Shown here piece by piece: positions 596-9,890 of a stretch of 10,280 nucleotides of DNA. Within the stretch, counting starts at the first letter, position 1. The number at the start of each line of letters is the position of its first letter. The translations under genes were made by a program, and so were the position numbers. Source of the stretch: a virus (Duplodnaviria; Heunggongvirae; Uroviricota; Caudoviricetes); the IMG/VR virus record IMGVR_UViG_2645728048_000009; one strand, written 5' to 3'. Under the pieces are notes generated by a model. It saw only the letters and a list, made by a program, of their open reading frames with translations, made no database searches and was not told the origin of the DNA.

Positions 596-1027
596 ATGTT
601 TCTGAAAACAGAACAATTTGAATATAACGGTGTGTCCGTCACGCTTTCCGAGCTGTCTGCGCTGCAGCGTATTGAGCATCTTGCCCTCCTGAAACGGCGT
701 GCAGAACAGGCAGAATCCAGCGGCAACCTGCAGGTAAGCGTGGAAGATCTCGTCAGAACCGGCGCGTTTCTGGTGGCGATGTCCCTGTGGCATAACCATC
801 CGCAGAAAACGGCATCACCGTCAATGAATGAGGCTGTGATGCAGATCGAACAGGAGGTGCTCACCACCTGGCCTGCGGATGCCATTGCCCGGGCGGAAGA
901 TGTGGTGTTGCGTCTGTCCGGGATGAGCGGGGCTGTTCATGCGGATACTGACAGCACCGAAGTGGCGAAAAATAACGCACTGACTGATGATGATTTTTCT
1001 GCGGGAAAGTCTTCGACGGCGAGCTGA
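596..1027 (+). CDS. G: Tail assembly chaperone G
   Basis: ATG at 596 preceded by GGAGG (585-589); 143 codons ending TGA 1025-1027; lies between V and the tape measure gene; contains the G GGA AAG slippery heptamer near its 3' end. Confidence 0.9.
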   Translation: MFLKTEQFEYNGVSVTLSELSALQRIEHLALLKRRAEQAESSGNLQVSVEDLVRTGAFLVAMSLWHNHPQKTASPSMNEAVMQIEQEVLTTWPADAIARAEDVVLRLSGMSGAVHADTDSTEVAKNNALTDDDFSAGKSSTAS

Positions 1028-1467
1028 ATTTTGCCCTCAGACTGGCGCGTGAGATGGGGAGGCCTGACTGGCGCGCCATGCTTGCCGGGATGACATCCAC
1101 CGAATATGCCGACTGGCGACATTTTTACCGTACGCATTATTTTCACGATACCCAACTGGATATGCATTTTTCCGGGCTGACGTACGCCGTACTCAGCCTG
1201 TTTTTTTGCGATCCGGATATGCATCCCTCTGATTTCAGTCTGCTTGCCCCCCGGCGTGAGGAAGCGCAGACGGAGATGCCGGATGAGGAAAAAATGCTGA
1301 TGCAGAAAGCGGCAGGACTTGCCGGAGGCGTACGGTTTGGTGGGGACGGAGGGCGTGAGATTTTATCGTCTGCGGATGTGGCGGATGTCAGCGAGGATGA
1401 TGTCGCATTAATGATGGCTTCAGCGGGGATTCCGGGAGGTGTGAGATATGTCCCAGCCGGTTGGTGA
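596..1467 (+). CDS. T: Tail assembly chaperone G-T fusion made by -1 programmed ribosomal frameshift at 1003-1009 (T frame read from 1009 to TGA 1465-1467)
   Basis: Heptamer G GGA AAG sits in the G reading frame (codons gcG GGA AAG at 1001-1009). The -1 frame is open from there to 1467 and ends 20 nt inside the start of H. This is the conserved G/G-T arrangement upstream of tape measure genes. The track ORF 1054..1467 is the T frame, which has no plausible independent start. Confidence 0.8.
1003..1009 (+). other. -1 programmed ribosomal frameshift slippery site (G GGA AAG)
   Basis: Exact X XXY YYZ heptamer in the correct phase of G, 6 codons before the G stop, with the -1 frame open downstream; same heptamer as the lambda G-T frameshift site. 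Confidence 0.8.
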
Positions 1468-4009
1468 TCTTGTTATTGACCTGAGTCTGGATGCGGTCCG
1501 TTTCGATGAGCAGATGAGCCGGGTAAGGCGTCATTTTTCCGGACTGGAGACTGACGCCAGAAAAACCGCCGGTGTCGTTGAGCAGAACCTGAGTCGTCAG
1601 GCGCTGGCTGCACAAAAAGCCGGGATTTCCGTCGGGCAGTATAAAGCGGCCATGCGAACCCTGCCCGCACAGTTTACGGATATCGCCACGCAGCTTGCCG
1701 GTGGTCAGAATCCCTGGCTGATCCTGCTGCAACAGGGCGGTCAGGTGAAGGACTCCTTCGGCGGGATGATCCCCATGTTCAGGGGACTTGCCGGTGCGAT
1801 CACCCTGCCGATGGTGGGGGCCACCTCGCTGGCGGTGGCGACCGGTGCGCTGGCGTATGCCTGGTATCAGGGCAACTCAACCCTGTCCGATTTCAACAAA
1901 ACGCTGGTCCTTTCCGGCAATCAGGCGGGACTGACGGCAGATCGTATTCTGGCCCTGTCCAGAGCCGGGCAGGCGGCAGGGCTGACGTTTAACCAGACCA
2001 GCGAGTCACTGACGGCGCTGGTGAATGCCGGTGTGCGTGGTGGTGAGCAGTTTGAGGCGATCAGCCAGAGTGTGGCGCGTTTCTCCTCTGCATCCGGCGT
2101 GGAGGTGGACAAGGTCGCTGAAGCCTTCGGGAAGCTGACCACAGACCCGACGTCGGGACTGACAGCGATGGCACGTCAGTTCCATAACGTGACGGCGGAG
2201 CAGATTGCGTATGTTGCTCAGTTGCAGCGTTCCGGAGATGAAGCCGGGGCATTGCAGGCGGCGAACGAGGCCGCAACGAAAGGGTTTGATGACCAGACCC
2301 GCCGCCTGAAAGAGAACATGGGCACGCTGGAAACCTGGGCAGACAGGACAGCACGGGCATTCAAATCCATGTGGGATGCGGTGCTGGATATTGGTCGTCC
2401 TGATACCGCGCAGGAGATGCTGATTAAGGCAGAGGCCGCGTTTAAGAAAGCGGACGATATCTGGAATCTGCGCAAGGATGATTATTTTGTTAACGATGAA
2501 GCGCGGGCGCGTTACTGGGATGATCGTGAAAAGGCCCGTCTTGCGCTTGAAGCCGCCCGAAAGAAGGCTGAGCAGCAGAGTCAACAGGACAAAAATGCGC
2601 AGCAGCAGAGCGATACCGAAGCGTCACGGCTGAAATATACCGAAGAGGCGCAGAAGGCTTACGAACGCCTGCAGACGCCGCTGGAGAAATATACCGCCCG
2701 TCAGGAAGAACTGAATAAGGCACTGAAAGACGGGAAAATCCTGCAGGCAGATTACAACACGCTGATGGCGGCGGCGAAAAAGGATTATGAAGCGACGCTG
2801 AAAAAGCCGAAACAGTCCGGCGTGAAGGTGTCTGCGGGCGATCGTCAGGAAGACAGTGCTCATGCTGCCCTGCTGACGCTTCAGGCAGAACTCCGGACGC
2901 TGGAGAAGCATGCCGGAGCAAATGAGAAAATCAGCCAGCAGCGCCGGGATTTGTGGAAGGCGGAGAGTCAGTTCGCGGTACTGGAGGAGGCGGCGCAACG
3001 TCGCCAGCTGTCTGCACAGGAGAAATCCCTGCTGGCGCATAAAGATGAGACGCTGGAGTACAAACGCCAGCTGGCTGCACTTGGCGACAAGGTTACGTAT
3101 CAGGAGCGCCTGAACGCGCTGGCGCAGCAGGCGGATAAATTCGCACAGCAGCAACGGGCAAAACGGGCCGCCATTGATGCGAAAAGCCGGGGGCTGACTG
3201 ACCGGCAGGCAGAACGGGAAGCCACGGAACAGCGCCTGAAGGAACAGTATGGCGATAATCCGCTGGCGCTGAATAACGTCATGTCAGAGCAGAAAAAGAC
3301 CTGGGCGGCTGAAGACCAGCTTCGCGGGAGCTGGATGGCAGGCCTGAAGTCCGGCTGGAGTGAGTGGGAAGAGAGCGCCACGGACAGTATGTCGCAGGTA
3401 AAAAGTGCAGCCACGCAGACCTTTGATGGTATTGCACAGAATATGGCGGCGATGCTGACCGGCAGTGAGCAGAACTGGCGCAGCTTCACCCGTTCCGTGC
3501 TGTCCATGATGACAGAAATTCTGCTTAAGCAGGCAATGGTGGGGATTGTCGGGAGTATCGGCAGCGCCATTGGCGGGGCTGTTGGTGGCGGCGCATCCGC
3601 GTCAGGCGGTACAGCCATTCAGGCAGCTGCGGCGAAATTCCATTTTGCGACCGGGGGATTTACGGGAACCGGCGGCAAATATGAGCCAGCGGGGATTGTT
3701 CACCGTGGTGAGTTTGTCTTCACGAAGGAGGCAACCAGCCGGATTGGCGTGGGGAATCTTTACCGGCTGATGCGCGGCTATGCCACCGGCGGTTATGTCG
3801 GTACACCGGGCAGCATGGCAGACAGCCGGTCGCAGGCGTCCGGGACGTTTGAGCAGAATAACCATGTGGTGATTAACAACGACGGCACGAACGGGCAGAT
3901 TGGACCACAGGCGCTGAAGGCGGTGTATGACATGGCCCGCAAGGGTGCCCGTGATGAAATTCAGACACAGATGCGTGATGGTGGCCTGTTCTCCGGAGGT
4001 GGACGATGA
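1448..4009 (+). CDS. H: Tail tape measure protein H
   Basis: 853-aa ORF; ATG 1448 preceded by GGAGG (1435-1439). Long central A/Q/E/K/R-rich predicted coiled-coil region, a Gly-rich hydrophobic segment near the C-terminus (approx. 3530-3680), position directly after G-T. Length equals lambda gpH as I recall it. Confidence 0.95.
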   Translation: MSQPVGDLVIDLSLDAVRFDEQMSRVRRHFSGLETDARKTAGVVEQNLSRQALAAQKAGISVGQYKAAMRTLPAQFTDIATQLAGGQNPWLILLQQGGQVKDSFGGMIPMFRGLAGAITLPMVGATSLAVATGALAYAWYQGNSTLSDFNKTLVLSGNQAGLTADRILALSRAGQAAGLTFNQTSESLTALVNAGVRGGEQFEAISQSVARFSSASGVEVDKVAEAFGKLTTDPTSGLTAMARQFHNVTAEQIAYVAQLQRSGDEAGALQAANEAATKGFDDQTRRLKENMGTLETWADRTARAFKSMWDAVLDIGRPDTAQEMLIKAEAAFKKADDIWNLRKDDYFVNDEARARYWDDREKARLALEAARKKAEQQSQQDKNAQQQSDTEASRLKYTEEAQKAYERLQTPLEKYTARQEELNKALKDGKILQADYNTLMAAAKKDYEATLKKPKQSGVKVSAGDRQEDSAHAALLTLQAELRTLEKHAGANEKISQQRRDLWKAESQFAVLEEAAQRRQLSAQEKSLLAHKDETLEYKRQLAALGDKVTYQERLNALAQQADKFAQQQRAKRAAIDAKSRGLTDRQAEREATEQRLKEQYGDNPLALNNVMSEQKKTWAAEDQLRGSWMAGLKSGWSEWEESATDSMSQVKSAATQTFDGIAQNMAAMLTGSEQNWRSFTRSVLSMMTEILLKQAMVGIVGSIGSAIGGAVGGGASASGGTAIQAAAAKFHFATGGFTGTGGKYEPAGIVHRGEFVFTKEATSRIGVGNLYRLMRGYATGGYVGTPGSMADSRSQASGTFEQNNHVVINNDGTNGQIGPQALKAVYDMARKGARDEIQTQMRDGGLFSGGGR

Positions 4010-4335
4010 AAACCTTCCGCTGGAAAGTGAAACCCGGGATGGATGTGACATCGGCTCCTTCCGTCAGGGAGGTGCGCTTTGGTGATGGCTATTCCCAGCG
4101 TGCGCCTGCCGGGCTGAACGCTGACCTGAAAACGTACAGCGTGACGCTGTCTGTCTCCCGTGAGGAGGCCACGGCGCTGGAGTCGTTTCTGGCTGAGCAC
4201 GGGGGCTGGAAGGCCTTTCTGTGGACGCCGCCTTATGGTTACAGGCAGATAAAGGTGACCTGCGCAAAATGGTCGTCGCAGGTCAGTATGCTGCGTGTTG
4301 AGTTCAGCGCAGAGTTTAAACAGGTGGTGAACTGA
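4006..4335 (+). CDS. M: Tail tip assembly protein M
   Basis: 109-aa ORF; ATG overlaps the H stop (ATGA at 4006-4009); GGAGG at 3995-3999; synteny H-M-L. Confidence 0.9.
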   Translation: MKTFRWKVKPGMDVTSAPSVREVRFGDGYSQRAPAGLNADLKTYSVTLSVSREEATALESFLAEHGGWKAFLWTPPYGYRQIKVTCAKWSSQVSMLRVEFSAEFKQVVN

Positions 4336-5033
4336 TGCAGGATATCCGGCAGGAAACACTGAATGAATGCACCCGTGCGGAGCAGTCGGCCAGCGTGGTG
4401 CTCTGGGAAATCGACCTGACAGAGGTCGGTGGAGAACGTTATTTTTTCTGTAATGAGCAGAACGAAAAAGGTGAGCCGGTCACCTGGCAGGGGCGACAGT
4501 ATCAGCCGTATCCCATTCAGGGGAGCGGTTTTGAACTGAATGGCAAAGGCACCAGTACGCGCCCCACGCTGACGGTTTCTAACCTGTACGGTATGGTCAC
4601 CGGGATGGCGGAAGATATGCAGAGTCTGGTCGGCGGAACGGTGGTCCGGCGTAAGGTTTACGCCCGTTTTCTGGATGCGGTGAACTTCGTCAACGGAAAC
4701 AGTTACGCCGATCCGGAGCAGGAGGTGATCAGCCGCTGGCGCATCGAGCAGTGCAGCGAACTGAGCGCGGTGAGTGCCTCCTTTGTACTGTCCACGCCGA
4801 CGGAAACGGATGGCGCTGTTTTTCCGGGACGTATCATGCTGGCCAACACCTGCACCTGGACCTATCGCGGTGACGAGTGCGGTTATAACGGTCCGGCTGT
4901 CGCGGATGAATATGACCAGCCGACGTCCGATATCACGAAGGATAAATGCAGCAAATGCCTGAGCGGCTGTAAGTTCCGCAATAACGTCGGCAACTTTGGC
5001 GGCTTCCTTTCCATTAACAAACTTTCGCAGTAA
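4335..5033 (+). CDS. L: Tail tip protein L (C-terminal Cys cluster, probable Fe-S binding)
   Basis: 232-aa ORF; start overlaps the M stop (TGATG at 4333-4337); cysteine cluster CTWTYRGDECGYNG...CSKCLSGC encoded at about 4850-4970; synteny. Confidence 0.9.
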   Translation: MQDIRQETLNECTRAEQSASVVLWEIDLTEVGGERYFFCNEQNEKGEPVTWQGRQYQPYPIQGSGFELNGKGTSTRPTLTVSNLYGMVTGMAEDMQSLVGGTVVRRKVYARFLDAVNFVNGNSYADPEQEVISRWRIEQCSELSAVSASFVLSTPTETDGAVFPGRIMLANTCTWTYRGDECGYNGPAVADEYDQPTSDITKDKCSKCLSGCKFRNNVGNFGGFLSINKLSQ

Positions 5034-5037
5034 TCCC

Positions 5038-5781
5038 ATGACAGAGACAGAATCAGCGATTCTGGCGCACGCCCGGCGATGTGCGCCAGCGGAGTCGTGC
5101 GGCTTCGTGGTGAGAACGCCGGAGGGGGAAAGATATTTTCCCTGCGTGAATATCTCCGGTGAGCCGGAGGAGTATTTCCGGATGTCGCCGGAGGACTGGC
5201 TGCAGGCAGAAATGCAGGGTGAGATTGTGGCGCTGGTCCACAGCCACCCCGGTGGTCTGCCCTGGCTGAGTGAGGCTGACCGGCGGCTGCAGGTGCAGAG
5301 TGATTTGCCGTGGTGGCTGGTCTGCCGGGGGGCGATTCATAAATTCCGCTGTGTGCCGCATCTCACCGGGCGGCGCTTTGAGCACGGGGTGACGGACTGT
5401 TACACGCTGTTCCGGGACGCTTACCATCTGGCGGGGATTGAGATGCCGGATTTTCATCGTGAGGATGACTGGTGGCGTCACGGTCAGAATCTCTATCTGG
5501 ATAATCTGGAGGCAACGGGGCTGTATCAGGTGCCGTTGTCAGCGGCGCAGCCGGGCGATGTGCTGCTGTGCTGTTTTGGTTCATCGGTGCCGAATCATGC
5601 CGCCATTTACTGTGGCGACGGCGAGCTGCTGCACCATATTCCTGAACAACTGAGTAAACGAGAGAGGTACACCGACAAATGGCAGCGACGCACACACTCC
5701 CTCTGGCGTCACCGGGCATGGCACGCATCTGCCTTTACGGGGATTTACAACGATTTGGCCGCCGCATCGACCTTCGTGTGA
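5038..5781 (+). CDS. K: Tail tip assembly protein K with MPN/JAMM-like and NlpC/P60-like domains; longest ORF shown, alternative in-frame start at 5182 (199 aa)
   Basis: ATG 5038 lies 4 nt after the L stop with no Shine-Dalgarno. In-frame ATG 5182 is preceded by GGAGG (5166-5170). JAMM-type motif H-S-H-x7-S-x2-D encoded near 5239-5280. NlpC/P60-like Cys (TDCY, about 5398) and His (VPNHAAIY, about 5595). Stop TGA 5779-5781, overlapping I by 103 nt in another frame. The track's 4996 start is upstream of the L stop and is rejected. Confidence 0.8.
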   Translation: MTETESAILAHARRCAPAESCGFVVRTPEGERYFPCVNISGEPEEYFRMSPEDWLQAEMQGEIVALVHSHPGGLPWLSEADRRLQVQSDLPWWLVCRGAIHKFRCVPHLTGRRFEHGVTDCYTLFRDAYHLAGIEMPDFHREDDWWRHGQNLYLDNLEATGLYQVPLSAAQPGDVLLCCFGSSVPNHAAIYCGDGELLHHIPEQLSKRERYTDKWQRRTHSLWRHRAWHASAFTGIYNDLAAASTFV

Positions 5782-6350
5782 AAACGGGGGCTGAAGCCAT
5801 CCGCGCACTGGCCACACAGCTCCCGGCGTTTCGTCAGAAACTGAGCGACGGCTGGTATCAGGTACGGATTGCCGGGCGGGACGTCAGCACGTCCGGGTTA
5901 ACGGCGCAGTTACATGAGACTCTGCCTGATGGCGCTGTGATTCATATTGTTCCCAGAGTCGCCGGGGCCAAGTCAGGTGGCGTATTCCAGATTGTCCTGG
6001 GAGCAGCCGCCATTGCCGGATCATTCTTTACTGCCGGAGCCACCCTTGCAGCGTGGGGGGCAGCCATTGGGGCCGGTGGTATGACCGGCATCCTGTTTTC
6101 TCTCGGTGCCAGTATGGTGCTCGGTGGTGTGGCCCAGATGCTGGCACCGAAAGCCAGAACTCCCCGTACACAGACAACGGATAACGGCAAACAAAACACC
6201 TATTTCTCCTCACTGGATAACATGGTTGCCCAAGGCAATGTTCTGCCCGTTCTGTACGGTGAAATGCGCGTGGGATCACGTGTGGTTTCTCAGGAGATCA
6301 GCACGGCAGACGAAGGGGACGGTGGTCAGGTTGTGGTGATTGGTCGCTGA
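5679..6350 (+). CDS. I: Tail tip assembly protein I (N-terminal ubiquitin-like region ending in Gly-Gly, then a hydrophobic Gly/Ala-rich C-terminal half)
   Basis: 223-aa ORF; ATG 5679 with GAGAGG upstream (5662-5667); Gly-Gly at codons 100-101 (5976-5981) followed by a hydrophobic A/G/L-rich stretch; synteny K-I-J. Confidence 0.9.
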   Translation: MAATHTLPLASPGMARICLYGDLQRFGRRIDLRVKTGAEAIRALATQLPAFRQKLSDGWYQVRIAGRDVSTSGLTAQLHETLPDGAVIHIVPRVAGAKSGGVFQIVLGAAAIAGSFFTAGATLAAWGAAIGAGGMTGILFSLGASMVLGGVAQMLAPKARTPRTQTTDNGKQNTYFSSLDNMVAQGNVLPVLYGEMRVGSRVVSQEISTADEGDGGQVVVIGR

Positions 6351-6410: not shown

Positions 6411-9400
6411 ATGGGTAAAGGAAGCAGTAAGGGGCATACCCCGCGCGAAGCGAAGGACAACCTGAAGTCCACGCAGTTGCTGAGTGTGATCGATGCCATC
6501 AGCGAAGGGCCGGTTGAAGGTCCGGTAGATGGATTAAAAAGCGTGCTGCTGAACAGTACGCCGGTGCTGGACAGTGAGGGGAATACCAACATCTCCGGCG
6601 TCACGGTGGTGTTCCGGGCAGGTGAGCAGGAGCAGACACCGCCGGAGGGATTTGAATCCTCCGGCTCCGAGACGGTGCTGGGTACGGAAGTGAAATATGA
6701 CACGCCGATCACCCGCACCATCACGTCGGCAAACATCGACCGACTGCGCCTGACCTTCGGCGTGCAGGCACTGGTGGAAACCACCTCAAAGGGGGACAGG
6801 AATCCATCGGAAGTCCGCCTGCTGGTTCAGATACAACGTAACGGTGGCTGGGTGACGGAAAAAGACATCACCATTAAGGGCAAAACCACTTCACAGTATC
6901 TGGCCTCGGTGGTGGTGGATAACCTGCCGCCGCGCCCGTTCAATATCCGGATGCGCAGGATGACGCCGGACAGCACCACAGACCAGCTGCAGAACAAAAC
7001 GCTCTGGTCGTCATACACCGAAATCATCGATGTGAAACAGGGCTACCCGAACACGGCACTGGTCGGCGTGCAGGTGGACTCGGAGCAGTTCGGCAGCCAG
7101 CAGGTGAGCCGTAATTATCATCTTCGCGGGCGCATTCTGCAGGTGCCGTCGAACTATAACCCGCAGACGCGGCAATACAGCGGTATCTGGGACGGAACGT
7201 TAAAACCGGCATACAGCAACAACACGGCCTGGTGTCTGTGGGATATGCTGACCCACCCGCGCTACGGCATGGGGAAACGTCTTGGTGCGGCGGATGTGGA
7301 TAAATGGGCGCTGTATGTCATCGGCCAGTACTGCGACCAGTCGGTGCCGGACGGCTTTGGCGGCACGGAGCCGCGCATTACCTGTAATGCGTACCTGACC
7401 ACACAGCGCAAGGCGTGGGATGTGCTCAGTGATTTCTGCTCGGCGATGCGCTGTATGCCGGTATGGAACGGGCAGACGCTGACGTTCGTGCAGGACCGAC
7501 CATCAGATAAGGTGTGGACCTATAACCGCAGTAATGTGGTGATGCCGGATGATGGTGCGCCGTTCCGCTACAGCTTCAGCGCCCTGAAGGACCGCCATAA
7601 TGCCGTTGAGGTGAACTGGATTGACCCGAATAACGGCTGGGAGACGGCGACAGAGCTTGTTGAAGATACGCAGGCCATTGCCCGTTACGGTCGTAATGTC
7701 ACGAAGATGGATGCCTTTGGTTGTACCAGCCGGGGGCAGGCACACCGAGCCGGGCTGTGGCTGATTAAAACGGAACTGCTGGAAACGCAGACCGTGGATT
7801 TCAGCGTGGGCGCAGAAGGGCTTCGCCATGTGCCGGGCGATGTCATTGAAATCTGTGATGATGACTATGCCGGTATCAGCACCGGCGGGCGCGTGCTGGC
7901 GGTAAACAGCCAGACCCGGACGCTGACGCTCGACCGTGAAATCACGCTGCCATCCTCCGGCACCACGCTGATAAGCCTGGTTGACGGGAAGGGTAATCCG
8001 GTCAGCGTGGAGGTCCAGTCCGTCACCGACGGCGTGAAGGTGAAAGTGAGCCGTGTTCCTGACGGCGTTGCTGAATACAGCGTGTGGGGGCTGAAGTTGC
8101 CGACGTTGCGCCAGCGCCTGTTCCGCTGCGTGAGTATCCGTGAGAACGACGACGGCACGTATGCCATCACCGCCGTGCAGCATGTACCCGAAAAAGAAGC
8201 CATCGTGGATAACGGGGCGCACTTTGACGGCGACCAGAGCGGCACGGTGAATGGTGTCACGCCGCCAGCGGTGCAGCACCTGACTGCCGAAGTCACCGCA
8301 GACAGCGGGGAATATCAGGTGCTGGCGCGCTGGGACACGCCGAAGGTGGTGAAGGGCGTGAGCTTTATGCTTCGCCTGACCGTGGCAGCGGATGACGGCA
8401 GTGAGCGGCTGGTCAGCACGGCCCGGACGACGGAAACCACATACCGCTTCACGCAACTGGCGCCGGGGAACTACAGGCTGACAGTCCGGGCGGTAAATGC
8501 GTGGGGGCAGCAGGGCGATCCGGCGTCGGTATCGTTCCGGATTGCCGCACCGGCAGCACCGTCGCGGATTGAGCTGACACCGGGCTATTTTCAGATAACA
8601 GCGGTCCCGCGTCTTGCGGTGTATGACCCGACGGTACAGTTTGAGTTCTGGTTTTCGGAAACGCGGATTACCGATATCAGGCAGGTTGAAACCACAGCCC
8701 GCTACCTTGGCACGGGGCTGTACTGGATAGCCGCCAGTATCAATATCAAACCGGGCCATGATTATTACTTTTATATCCGCAGTGTGAACACCGTTGGCAA
8801 ATCGGCATTTGTGGAGGCTGTTGGCCAGCCGAGTGATGATGCATCCGGCTATCTGGATTTTTTCAAAGGAGAGATAGGGAAAACCCATCTGGCTCAGGAG
8901 TTGTGGACTCAGATTGATAACGGTCAGCTTGCGCCTGACCTGGCGGAAATCAGAACGTCCATCACGGATGTCAGTAATGAAATCACGCAGACCGTCAATA
9001 AGAAACTGGAAGACCAGAGTGCAGCGATCCAGCAGATACAGAAGGTTCAGGTTGATACAAATAATAATCTGAACAGCATGTGGGCTGTGAAGCTGCAACA
9101 GATGAAGGACGGACGCCTTTATATTGCGGGTATCGGTGCCGGTATTGAGAATACGCCAGCAGGAATGCAGAGTCAGGTGCTGCTGGCGGCAGACAGGATT
9201 GCGATGATTAATCCTGCGAATGGCAACACAAAGCCGATGTTTGTTGGTCAGGGCGATCAGATATTCATGAATGAAGTGTTCCTGAAATATCTGACGGCTC
9301 CCACCATTACCAGTGGCGGCAATCCTCCGGCATTTTCCCTGACATCAGACGGAAAGCTGACCGCTAAAAATGCGGATATCAGTGGCAGTGTGAATGCGAA

Positions 9401-9890
9401 CTCCGGGACGCTCAACAACGTCACGATTAACGAGAACTGTCGGGTTCTGGGAAAACTGTCCGCGAACCAGATTGAAGGCGATCTCGTTAAAACAGTGGGC
9501 AAAGCTTTCCCCCGGGACTCCCGTGCACCGGAACGGTGGCCATCAGGGACCATTACCGTCAGGGTTTATGACGATCAGCCGTTTGACCGGCAGATTGTTA
9601 TTCCGGCGGTGGCATTCAGCGGCGCTAAACATGAGAGAGAGCATACTGATATTTACTCCTCATGCCGTCTGATAGTGCGGAAAAACGGTGCTGAAATTTA
9701 TAACCGTACCGCGCTGGATAATACGCTGATTTACAGTGGCGTTATTGATATGCCTGCCGGTCACGGTCACATGACGCTGGAGTTTTCGGTGTCAGCATGG
9801 CTGGTGAATAACTGGTATCCCACAGCAAGTATCAGCGATTTGCTGGTTGTGGTGATGAAGAAAGCCACCGCAGGCATCAGTATCAGCTGA
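6411..9890 (+). CDS. J: Central tail fibre / host-specificity protein J (tail tip; FN3-like repeats; divergent C-terminal receptor-binding region)
   Basis: 1159-aa ORF; ATG 6411 preceded by GAGGA (6405-6409). FN3-like segment encoded around 8250-8560. The N-terminal approx. 800 aa match my recollection of lambda J closely, whereas the last approx. 340 aa (from about 8870) diverge and the DNA there has visibly lower GC. Confidence 0.95.

What the first reader, a model, noticed from the sequence alone, without database searches (positions are those of the whole stretch)
5034..5184. Ambiguous start of K: the ORF extends 48 codons upstream of the Shine-Dalgarno-preceded ATG and fills the L-K gap
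An in-frame ATG at 5182 has a good GGAGG 11 nt upstream and would give a 199-aa protein, the length I recall for lambda K in older annotations. But the frame is open back to an ATG at 5038, only 4 nt after the L stop, with no SD, which suggests coupling to L. The upstream 48 codons (MTETESAILAHARRCAPAESCGFVVRTPEGERYF...) look like the N-terminal strand and conserved Glu region of an MPN fold that precedes the HxH motif. Starting at 5182 would therefore truncate the domain and leave about 148 nt of uncharacteristic non-coding DNA in an otherwise overlapping operon.
Basis: partly seen in the sequence, partly recalled or inferred. Interest (0 to 1): 0.4.

Follow-up and report, generated by a model that had tools for sequence, protein, structure and literature searches.

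The report
True start of tail gene K
The phage tail-assembly gene K in this window starts at the upstream ATG right after gene L and makes a 247-residue two-domain peptidase; the classic 199-residue lambda K comes from one base missing in the 1982 lambda reference sequence, so this is an annotation fix, not new biology.

Summary
L stops at 5031-5033. An ATG with no Shine-Dalgarno sequence lies at 5038. An in-frame ATG at 5182 lies 11 nt after GGAGG.

- **Domain:** codons 1-48 encode helix 1, strands 1-2 and the catalytic Glu19 of a JAMM/MPN domain. Pfam Prok-JAB scores 52.7 bits with them and 22.9, below cut-off, without them.
- **Conservation:** Glu19 is kept in 100 of 101 diverse homologues. 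Met49 is kept in only 21.
- **Synteny:** in 19 of 22 intact relatives (44-98% identity) K starts 3-11 nt after the L stop.
- **Selection:** the segment is under purifying selection.

New here: the lambda reference (J02459/NC_001416) lacks a G after position 14266. This puts the upstream ATG out of frame and explains the 199-aa annotation. Every independent re-sequencing examined carries the G.

Translation of K by coupling to L termination is inferred, not shown. A minor 199-aa isoform from the internal ATG cannot be excluded, but the ATG is not conserved.

Verdict: an ordinary, already-known kind of gene; useful mainly for database curation.

The parts
4335..5033 (+). Gene L (minor tail protein, 232 aa). 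Its stop codon TAA is at 5031-5033.
   Evidence: ORF list. Pfam Phage_tail_L, 337.9 bits.
5031..5040 (+). L-K junction, TAA-TCCC-ATG. There are 4 nt between the L stop and the K start, with no Shine-Dalgarno sequence. This is the proposed site of termination-reinitiation coupling.
   Evidence: Sequence. Anti-SD duplex +0.7 kcal/mol. In 19 of 22 intact relatives K starts 3-11 nt after the L stop.
5038..5781 (+). Gene K, full length: 247 aa plus the stop codon. It encodes an N-terminal JAMM/MPN domain and a C-terminal NlpC/P60 domain.
5038..5181 (+). The disputed 48 codons. They encode helix 1 (res 3-15), strands 1-2 (res 21-27 and 30-36) and the loop of the JAMM fold. The Glu19 codon GAG is at 5092-5094.
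   Evidence: Pfam coverage of residues 4-98. Alignment to 2KKS from residue 7. AF2 secondary structure and pLDDT 97-98. Conservation. dN/dS.
5166..5184 (+). Internal GGAGG (5166-5170) plus ATG (5182-5184, Met49). This is the start used in the 199-aa annotation. The GGAGG falls within the codons for Pro43-Glu44-Glu45.
   Evidence: Met49 is Met in 21/101 family members and Ile in 62. The ATG is absent from most distant loci.
5172..5172 (+). Position equivalent to the G that is missing after nt 14266 of the lambda reference record. The window and all re-sequenced lambdas carry a base here.
   Evidence: Alignments. Pattern counts. Published variant 14266 C>CG.
5239..5280 (+). The rest of the JAMM motif: His68-Ser69-His70 ... 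Ser78 ... Asp81.
   Evidence: His68, His70 and Asp81 are invariant, and Ser69 and Ser78 are 96-97/101, in the 101-sequence alignment.
5368..5709 (+). NlpC/P60 papain-like peptidase domain (res 111-224), with conserved candidate catalytic residues Cys121, His187 and His199.
   Evidence: Pfam, 49.2 bits. Conservation 100/101 each. Foldseek hits to MepS/Spr.
5679..6350 (+). Gene I (223 aa as listed). It overlaps the end of K by 103 nt in another frame.

Best explanation
Gene K of this lambdoid tail operon is 5038-5781 and encodes a 247-residue protein. It has an N-terminal JAMM/MPN metallopeptidase domain (res ~1-105) and a C-terminal NlpC/P60 cysteine-peptidase domain (res ~111-224).

The 48 codons at 5038-5181 are coding sequence. 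They supply helix 1, the first two core strands and Glu19, the catalytic glutamate of the E-x(n)-H-S-H-x7-S-x2-D motif. A protein started at 5182 would have half a JAMM domain and no active-site Glu. These points are shown.

ATG 5038 has no Shine-Dalgarno sequence and sits 4 nt after the L stop. It is therefore most likely read by ribosomes that have just terminated on L (translational coupling or reinitiation). This would also keep K, an assembly factor not found in virions, at a low level relative to L. This step is inferred.

The internal GGAGG-ATG is a by-product of the Pro-Glu-Glu codons and of a Met that is Ile in most relatives.

The textbook 199-aa lambda K arose because the 1982 lambda sequence lacks one G after nt 14266, which throws the upstream ATG out of frame.
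For: **Domain**
- Prok-JAB scores 52.7 bits over res 4-98 in the 247-aa form. It scores 22.9 bits, below the cut-off of 25, in the 199-aa form.
- The PDB entry 2KKS aligns from residue 7.
- The AF2 model has pLDDT 97 and pTM 0.91, with helix 3-15 and strands 21-27 and 30-36.
- Foldseek JAMM hits (2KKS, PfJAMM1 5LD9/5LDA) span 107-118 alignment columns. That is more than the 57 residues available from 49 to 105.

**Conservation**
- In 101 homologues at 33-98% identity, Glu19 is 100/101, Gly22 and Asn38 are 101/101, and Phe47 is 97/101.
- The homologues' own N-termini lie 2-14 residues before the Ile8 column in 98/101.
- Met49 is Met in only 21/101.

**Synteny**
- 19 of the 22 intact loci examined, from Escherichia, Citrobacter, Providencia, Xenorhabdus, Budvicia, Limnobaculum, Pasteurellaceae and an Aeromonadaceae MAG, start K at an ATG 3-11 nt after the L stop and give 241-247 aa. 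Edwardsiella piscicida L043 starts 35 nt after it, and L064, L050 and L055 have no adjacent L stop.
- Several of them have a real SD there.

**Selection**
- For codons 2-48 against E. albertii, pS is 0.41 and pN is 0.062, giving dN/dS 0.11. The rest of the gene gives 0.12. Fisher p = 1.2e-5.

**Lambda record**
- Five independently sequenced lambda-type records read GGAGGCGTATTTCC where J02459 and NC_001416 read GGAGGC-TATTTCC: three lambda genomes, lambda imm434 and DE3.
- At least 12 lambda-contaminant contigs are otherwise identical to the reference, up to 2,501 bp with 0 mismatches, and all carry the G.
- A lambda-gt10 transgene study lists 14266 C>CG (PMC6760142).
- PGAP and Pharokka-style annotations of relatives already aa.
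Against: - There is no direct evidence for the N-terminus from this window or from lambda. gpK was not detected by virion mass spectrometry (PMC10721106).
- ATG 5038 has no SD, while ATG 5182 has a strong one at -9.5 kcal/mol. Some internal initiation is therefore plausible.
- dN/dS in codons 2-48 is higher than in the rest of the gene for several pairs, 0.3-0.5 against 0.07-0.17. This partly reflects the variable first 7 residues and small counts.
- The AF2 model of the 199-aa form is as confident as the full model, so structure prediction does not by itself exclude the short form.
- Two records, OR974322 and OR474059, share the reference's gap. I assume they derive from the reference, but I did not verify this.
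Confidence: 0.9

Rival explanations
1. Dual products. The 247-aa protein is made from ATG 5038. Ribosomes also initiate at the SD-preceded ATG 5182 and make a 199-aa isoform carrying an intact NlpC/P60 domain and a crippled JAMM domain. This would be a nested in-frame gene, comparable to lambda C/Nu3 or S107/S105 (my background knowledge).
For: GGAGG lies 11 nt upstream of ATG 5182, with an anti-SD duplex of -9.5 kcal/mol. This is in the best ~5% of ATGs in the window. The SD-plus-ATG pair is present in the window, in lambda and in many close E. coli relatives.
Against: - Met49 is Ile, Leu or Val in 80/101 family members and in 42 of the 100 of the 120 closest clusters in which the motif was found.
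- The ATG is lost even in relatives at 96% (L030) and 87% (E. albertii L036) identity, while the GGAGG-encoding Pro-Glu codons persist.
- Citrobacter and Edwardsiella keep the Met but have no SD.
- The spacing of 10-11 nt is at the long end of what is usual for an SD (background knowledge).
Confidence: 0.1
2. The classical annotation is right. K starts at 5182 and is 199 aa, and 5034-5181 is an untranslated spacer or regulatory region.
For: The lambda reference records and several derived annotations use this start. About 11,000 database members fall in clusters of exactly 199 aa that begin MSPEDW or MAPEDW. The SD is strong.
Against: - The segment evolves as coding sequence: pS is well above pN and the protein motif is conserved.
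- It completes a Pfam domain that otherwise falls below its cut-off.
- The internal ATG is missing in most relatives.
- The reference annotation is explained by a missing base.
Confidence: 0.02
3. K starts elsewhere in the open frame. Candidates are the TTG at 4996 (261 aa, overlapping L by 38 nt), or the GTGs at 5107/5110 (224 or 223 aa) or at 5146 (211 aa, the start chosen in record KT232076).
For: The frame is open from 4963 in the window. One record and two JGI/NCBI clusters use the 211-aa start.
Against: - In lambda-type relatives, a one-base longer L-K spacer puts a stop in this frame just upstream of the ATG, so the TTG is not available.
- TTG 4996 has no SD (-1.7 kcal/mol).
- The GTG starts would remove Glu19, helix 1 and strand 1.
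- Homologues' N-termini coincide with residue 1.
Confidence: 0.01

Closest known systems
Bacteriophage lambda gpK (tail tip assembly protein K; RefSeq NP_040598.1 and GenBank AAA96551.1, annotated as 199 aa)
   Same: It is the same gene in the same H-M-L-K-I-J operon. The DNA of the L-K-I region is about 97% identical to lambda-type phages. Re-sequenced lambda encodes a 247-aa K that is collinear with the window's.
   Different: The reference record is 48 residues shorter, because a G is missing after nt 14266. The window has a 4-nt L-K spacer where lambda has 5 nt. The window's J is 1159 aa rather than 1132, so the window is a lambdoid relative and not lambda itself.
[quoted passage not shown]
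   Same: It has the same two-domain architecture, and the same neighbourhood with the ubiquitin-like TAPI (gene I) and TAPJ. They predicted that the JAB domain cleaves TAPI after the C-terminal Gly of its Ubl domain.
   Different: Nothing differs structurally. That paper does not discuss the lambda start codon or the reference-sequence gap in the passages I retrieved.
Stand-alone prokaryotic JAMM/MPN+ peptidases: PfJAMM1 (5LD9/5LDA), the desampylase family NF041370, and DSY2949 (2KKS)
   Same: They share the fold and the E...HxH...S..D motif. Foldseek gives TM 0.59-0.65 on the target, rmsd 2.6-3.3 A, over 107-118 columns. phmmer against 2KKS gives E = 1e-5 over res 7-105.
   Different: Identity is only 21-26%. 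The NCBIfam desampylase score of 28.9 is far below its cut-off of 130, so K is not a member of that equivalog. K is fused to an NlpC/P60 domain and sits in a phage tail operon.
NlpC/P60 endopeptidases MepS/Spr (2K1G, 8XUP)
   Same: They share the papain-like fold and the conserved Cys/His/His positions, here Cys121, His187 and His199.
   Different: K has no signal peptide or lipobox context. Its substrate is presumed to be a tail protein rather than peptidoglycan; this is untested.

Membership tests
JAMM/MPN+ (Pfam PF14464 Prok-JAB) | The profile score exceeds the family's gathering cut-off over most of the model. | tested here: met
   52.7 bits against a cut-off of 25, covering res 4-98 and model positions 4-103 of 114. 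The 199-aa form scores 22.9 and fails.
JAMM/MPN+ (Pfam PF14464 Prok-JAB) | The catalytic motif E-x(n)-H-S/T-H-x7-S-x2-D, as defined in PMC300881. | tested here: met
   Glu19, His68-Ser69-His70, Ser78 and Asp81 are present. They are conserved at 100, 101, 97, 101, 96 and 101 of 101 respectively.
JAMM/MPN+ (Pfam PF14464 Prok-JAB) | The MPN fold. | tested here: met
   The AF2 model has pLDDT 97. Foldseek matches 2KKS, 5LD9, AMSH, CSN5 and Rpn11 at probability 1.00.
JAMM/MPN+ (Pfam PF14464 Prok-JAB) | Zn2+-dependent (iso)peptidase activity. | not testable with these tools
   This needs biochemistry. No published assay of gpK was found in the searchable library.
NlpC/P60 (Pfam PF00877) | The profile score exceeds the cut-off, and the Cys/His/His positions are conserved. 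| tested here: met
   49.2 bits against a cut-off of 23, over res 111-224. Cys121, His187 and His199 are each 100/101. Fold hits to MepS/Spr. The assignment of these three residues as the catalytic triad is my inference.
Lambda gpK / TAPK tail tip assembly protein | Position between L and I in an H-M-L-K-I-J tail operon, with high identity to lambda K. | tested here: met
   The gene order in the window matches, with Pfam Phage_tail_L and Lambda_tail_I on either side. K is 97% identical to lambda-type K (L014-L025).
Lambda gpK / TAPK tail tip assembly protein | Required for tail assembly and absent from the virion. | not testable with these tools
   From the literature only: PMC12617516 and PMC10721106.
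Translationally coupled gene pair (termination-reinitiation) | The start codon lies within a few nt of the upstream stop, and there is no independent SD. | tested here: met
   The spacer is 4 nt. The anti-SD duplex is +0.7 kcal/mol, against -6.8 to -11.6 for neighbouring genes. The stop-start distance is 3-11 nt in 19 of 22 intact relatives.
Translationally coupled gene pair (termination-reinitiation) | Downstream translation depends on the upstream ORF being translated as far as its stop. | not testable with these tools
   This needs an L nonsense or stop-relocation reporter experiment.

The most novel reading that the evidence does not exclude
In the lambda-type clade, the strong internal SD-ATG at 5166-5184 is used alongside the SD-less coupled start. 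K would then be a nested two-product gene: a 247-aa JAMM+NlpC/P60 enzyme, and a 199-aa NlpC/P60-only isoform with a different role in tail-tip assembly. The ratio between them would be set by how often ribosomes reinitiate after L.
Probability: 0.1. Interest if true: 0.4.

Novelty: already known. Interest (0 to 1): 0.25.

Why it matters
For the window itself, this only settles a start codon. Current pipelines already call the 247-aa form in close relatives.

The wider point concerns the model phage. The lambda reference protein (NP_040598.1 and AAA96551.1, 199 aa) lacks the first half of its JAMM domain, including the catalytic Glu, because one base is missing from the record.
- That truncated form has propagated. 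About 11,000 members fall in clusters of exactly 199 aa, against about 50,700 in 247-aa clusters among the top hits. The DE3 and lambda imm434 records also use it, even though their DNA is in frame.
- It is still used in structural-bioinformatic reviews, for example "199 in total" in PMC7291167.

gpK's role and location are still described as unknown. Anyone expressing, modelling or mutating gpK should use the 247-aa sequence, for instance to test the proposed JAB cleavage of the ubiquitin-like gpI.

Tried and rejected
1. **Structure prediction with and without the extension.** The 199-aa model is as confident as the 247-aa model (pLDDT 96.7 against 97.0). The test does not discriminate, because AF2 reproduces the partial domain from the alignment.

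2. **Literature.** I looked for an explicit statement that the lambda K start or the reference is wrong. Eight full-text searches found:
   - an unannotated variant table listing 14266 C>CG (PMC6760142);
   The Casjens & Hendrix 2015 review and the 2013 lambda ribosome-profiling paper are not held. I therefore cannot say the point has never been published.

3. **Programmed frameshift.** This could in principle explain the lambda reference's split frame. I rejected it because the DNA of re-sequenced lambda is simply in frame. A GGGAAAG heptamer at 5126-5132 is in the wrong phase for -1 slippage in the K frame, and three copies in the window is within chance (37 of 200 shuffles).

4. **Antisense ORFs.** The ORFs across the region (5053-5481 and 4239-5039, minus strand) have no Pfam match. 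I treat them as mechanical ORFs.

5. **TTG 4996 and the GTG starts.** Rejected; see the rival explanations.

6. **NCBIfam desampylase membership.** The score of 28.9 is below the cut-off of 130, so this is fold-level similarity only.

Full report
**What is in the sequence**

The window is the tail operon of a lambdoid phage or prophage. The genes are H 1448-4009, M 4006-4335, L 4335-5033, K, I 5679-6350 and J 6411-9890. Pfam confirms L and I. The L-K-I region is 97-98% identical to phages such as 2B8, mEp460 and vB_EcoS-689R5.

Every coordinate in the finding checks out:
- L stops with TAA at 5031-5033.
- TCCC follows, then an ATG at 5038.
- An in-frame ATG lies at 5182, and GGAGG at 5166-5170 sits 11 nt before it.
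- The frame ends with TGA at 5779-5781, giving 247 or 199 aa.

The predicted pairing to the 16S anti-SD is +0.7 kcal/mol before ATG 5038 and -9.5 before ATG 5182. H, M, L, I and J score -6.8 to -11.6. So the upstream start really has no SD, and the internal one has a good SD.

**The 48 codons are coding, and they are half of a domain**

- *Profile and sequence matches.* Pfam Prok-JAB matches residues 4-98 of the 247-aa product at 52.7 bits. In the 199-aa product only model positions 63-103 match, at 22.9 bits, below the 25-bit cut-off. The closest solved structure by sequence, 2KKS, aligns from residue 7.
- *Family alignment.* I aligned 101 family members (33-98% identity), drawn from a word-indexed search and an exhaustive HMMER search. 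The alignment shows the full JAMM motif as defined in PMC300881. Glu19 is 100/101, His68 and His70 are 101/101, Ser78 is 96/101 and Asp81 is 101/101. Gly22 and Asn38 are invariant.
- *Evenness of conservation.* Residues 8-48 are as conserved as the rest of the protein (0.47 against 0.47 and 0.49). The homologues' own N-termini fall 2-14 residues before the Ile8 column in 98 of 101.
- *The internal Met.* Met49 is Met in 21/101 and Ile in 62/101.
- *Structure.* AlphaFold2 on this alignment gives pLDDT 97 and pTM 0.91. It places helix 3-15 and strands 21-27 and 30-36 in the disputed segment. Foldseek matches JAMM enzymes (2KKS, PfJAMM1 5LD9/5LDA, AMSH, CSN5, Rpn11) over 107-118 columns. It also matches NlpC/P60 enzymes (MepS, Spr) for the C-terminal half.

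**DNA-level comparison**

I examined 22 intact related loci from one-genome-per-species contigs. They cover Escherichia, Citrobacter, Edwardsiella, Budvicia, Providencia, Xenorhabdus, Limnobaculum, Pasteurellaceae and an Aeromonadaceae MAG, at 44-98% protein identity.
- In 19 of the 22, the K frame starts at an ATG 3-11 nt after the L stop and gives 241-247 aa. Edwardsiella piscicida L043 starts 35 nt after it, and L064, L050 and L055 have no adjacent L stop. Three further Pantoea loci carry a JAB-only gene that overlaps the L stop by 4 nt.
- Several distant loci have a genuine SD there (TAAGGAG, AAGAGG, AGAGGGG).
- The internal ATG is absent in most of them, and even in a 96%-identical and an 87%-identical Escherichia relative.
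- Nei-Gojobori counts for codons 2-48 show purifying selection. Against E. albertii, pS is 0.41 and pN is 0.062, so dN/dS is 0.11, compared with 0.12 for the rest of the gene. Fisher p = 1.2e-5.
- Some pairs give 0.3-0.5. These rest on few changes and include the variable first seven residues.
There, a one-base longer spacer puts a stop in that frame.

**Where the 199-aa annotation comes from**

J02459 and NC_001416 annotate K at 14276-14875, 199 aa. This leaves a 148-nt gap after L.

Aligning the window with lambda shows that the reference reads GAGCCGGAGGC-TATTTCC. The window and phage 2B8 have one more base at that point. In the reference, the upstream ATG at 14133 is therefore 143 nt from 14276, which is out of frame. 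It would give a 76-aa product, 44 real residues followed by 32 out-of-frame residues.

Evidence that the extra base is the true sequence:
- Five independently determined lambda-type sequences all read GGAGGCGTATTTCC: LC730321, KT232076, PV340536, the DE3 prophage EU078592 and lambda imm434 OM418626.
- The genome-contig scan picked up many low-coverage lambda contaminant contigs in unrelated assemblies (Neobacillus, Shewanella, Pseudomonas, Bradyrhizobium and others). At least 12 are otherwise identical to the reference, up to 2,501 bp with 0 mismatches, and each differs by exactly this one gap.
- A MutaMouse lambda-gt10 transgene study lists the same change, 14266 C>CG, without comment (PMC6760142).
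- Feiss et al. 2022 mention nine differences from the 1982 sequence that are common in laboratory strains (PMC9119081). Their records still annotate K at 14276 with an RBS feature.

Only OR974322 and OR474059 share the gap. I presume they derive from the reference, but I did not verify this.

The evidence indicates a fault in that record (or, less likely, a private allele of the sequenced stock), not a feature of the gene.

Annotation is now inconsistent across databases:
- 247 aa from PGAP and Pharokka-style pipelines;
- 211 aa from a GTG in KT232076;
- 199 aa in the reference, DE3 and CPT records.

Among the top protein clusters, about 11,000 members are in clusters of exactly 199 aa beginning MSPEDW or MAPEDW. 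About 50,700 are in 247-aa clusters. A 2020 review still analyses gpK as "199 in total" (PMC7291167).

**Mechanism**

*Shown:* the gene product is a JAMM + NlpC/P60 two-domain protein whose JAMM active site needs residues encoded in 5038-5181.

*Inferred:*
- ATG 5038 has no SD and lies 4 nt after the L stop. It sits in an operon where H/M and M/L also abut or overlap. K is therefore probably translated by ribosomes terminating on L.
- This fits a protein that is needed for tail assembly but is not found in virions.
- Functionally, Iyer et al. proposed that the JAB domain of K cleaves the ubiquitin-like domain of gpI at its C-terminal glycine (PMC1779556). That idea requires the Glu19-containing long form.

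**Rivals**

- *A minor 199-aa isoform from the internal SD-ATG.* This cannot be excluded (about 10%). However, the ATG and the SD do not co-vary and neither is conserved outside the close clade.
- *The short form as the only product.* Contradicted by the comparative data.
- *TTG and GTG starts.* Contradicted by relatives and by the fold.

**What did not help**

- The truncated AF2 model is as confident as the full one.
- The two papers most likely to settle expression, the 2013 ribosome-profiling study and the 2015 Casjens-Hendrix review, are not held.
- Antisense ORFs have no family match.
- A GGGAAAG at 5126 is out of phase and within chance.

**Verdict**

This is a known protein family and a known kind of annotation problem, so interest is low. 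The practical by-product is that the model-phage reference protein is N-terminally truncated by 48 residues because of a single missing base.

Noticed in passing
window 5171-5172; lambda NC_001416/J02459 nt 14266-14267 (L004 1266-1268): The lambda reference record lacks a G after nt 14266, compared with every independently re-sequenced lambda examined. This splits K into a 76-aa out-of-frame ORF and the annotated 199-aa ORF. RefSeq NP_040598.1 is therefore probably truncated by 48 residues.
   Followed up: yes
window 5679-5781 (K/I overlap): The start of gene I is also annotated inconsistently. ATG 5679 gives 223 aa with a 103-nt overlap with K. GTG 5778 gives 190 aa and is used in PV340536 and KT232076. 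The conserved ubiquitin-like first strand (ARICLYGDLQRFG) lies upstream of the GTG, so the 190-aa call would truncate it. Distant relatives start at the Met14-equivalent ATG (window 5718). An out-of-frame K/I overlap of 58-106 nt is conserved.
   Followed up: partly
loci L014-L025, L034, L035, L037, L038, L042, L045, L057, L059, L062, L067, L071: Many genome assemblies of unrelated bacteria contain low-coverage contigs identical to lambda DNA. Examples are Neobacillus, Shewanella, Pseudomonas, Bradyrhizobium, Streptomyces-like and Bacteroidota assemblies. Some contigs are about 48.4-48.5 kb. They are most likely laboratory or spike-in contamination deposited as part of the genome.
   Followed up: partly
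loci L068-L070 (Pantoea), 1453-1812: In three Pantoea prophages, the gene after L is a stand-alone 119-aa JAB-only ORF whose ATG overlaps the L stop (ATGA). This splits the K architecture at the domain boundary. I did not look for the downstream NlpC/P60 partner.
   Followed up: no
proteins P0042, P0044, P0049 (218 aa): Some E. coli prophage K variants carry a 29-residue in-frame deletion (..PEDWLQ|VQSD..) that removes the HSH zinc-binding motif. They would be JAMM-dead K alleles with an intact NlpC/P60 domain.
   Followed up: no
proteins P0012, P0023, P0030, P0040, P0045, P0053 (311-431 aa): Gene calls exist that fuse Phage_tail_L and K domains into one protein. Others fuse K with Lambda_tail_I (P0015, P0032, P0089). 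They are probably single-base indels or assembly errors at the tight L-K and K-I junctions.
   Followed up: no
window 1003-1009: A GGGAAAG heptamer lies near the end of the 143-aa ORF at 596-1027. An ORF in another frame follows at 1054-1467. From background knowledge of lambda, this is the expected position of the G/G-T -1 programmed frameshift site. I did not analyse it further.
   Followed up: no
window 6411-9890: J is 1159 aa here, against 1132 aa in lambda (15505-18903 in NC_001416). The host-range end of the central fibre therefore differs from lambda's.
   Followed up: no
loci L065, L066 (E. coli ECMA0423, CP178302.1): Two K-region copies in this complete genome carry 43-72 gap openings relative to lambda, with multiple frame breaks in K. 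They are either decayed prophages or an error-rich long-read assembly.
   Followed up: no
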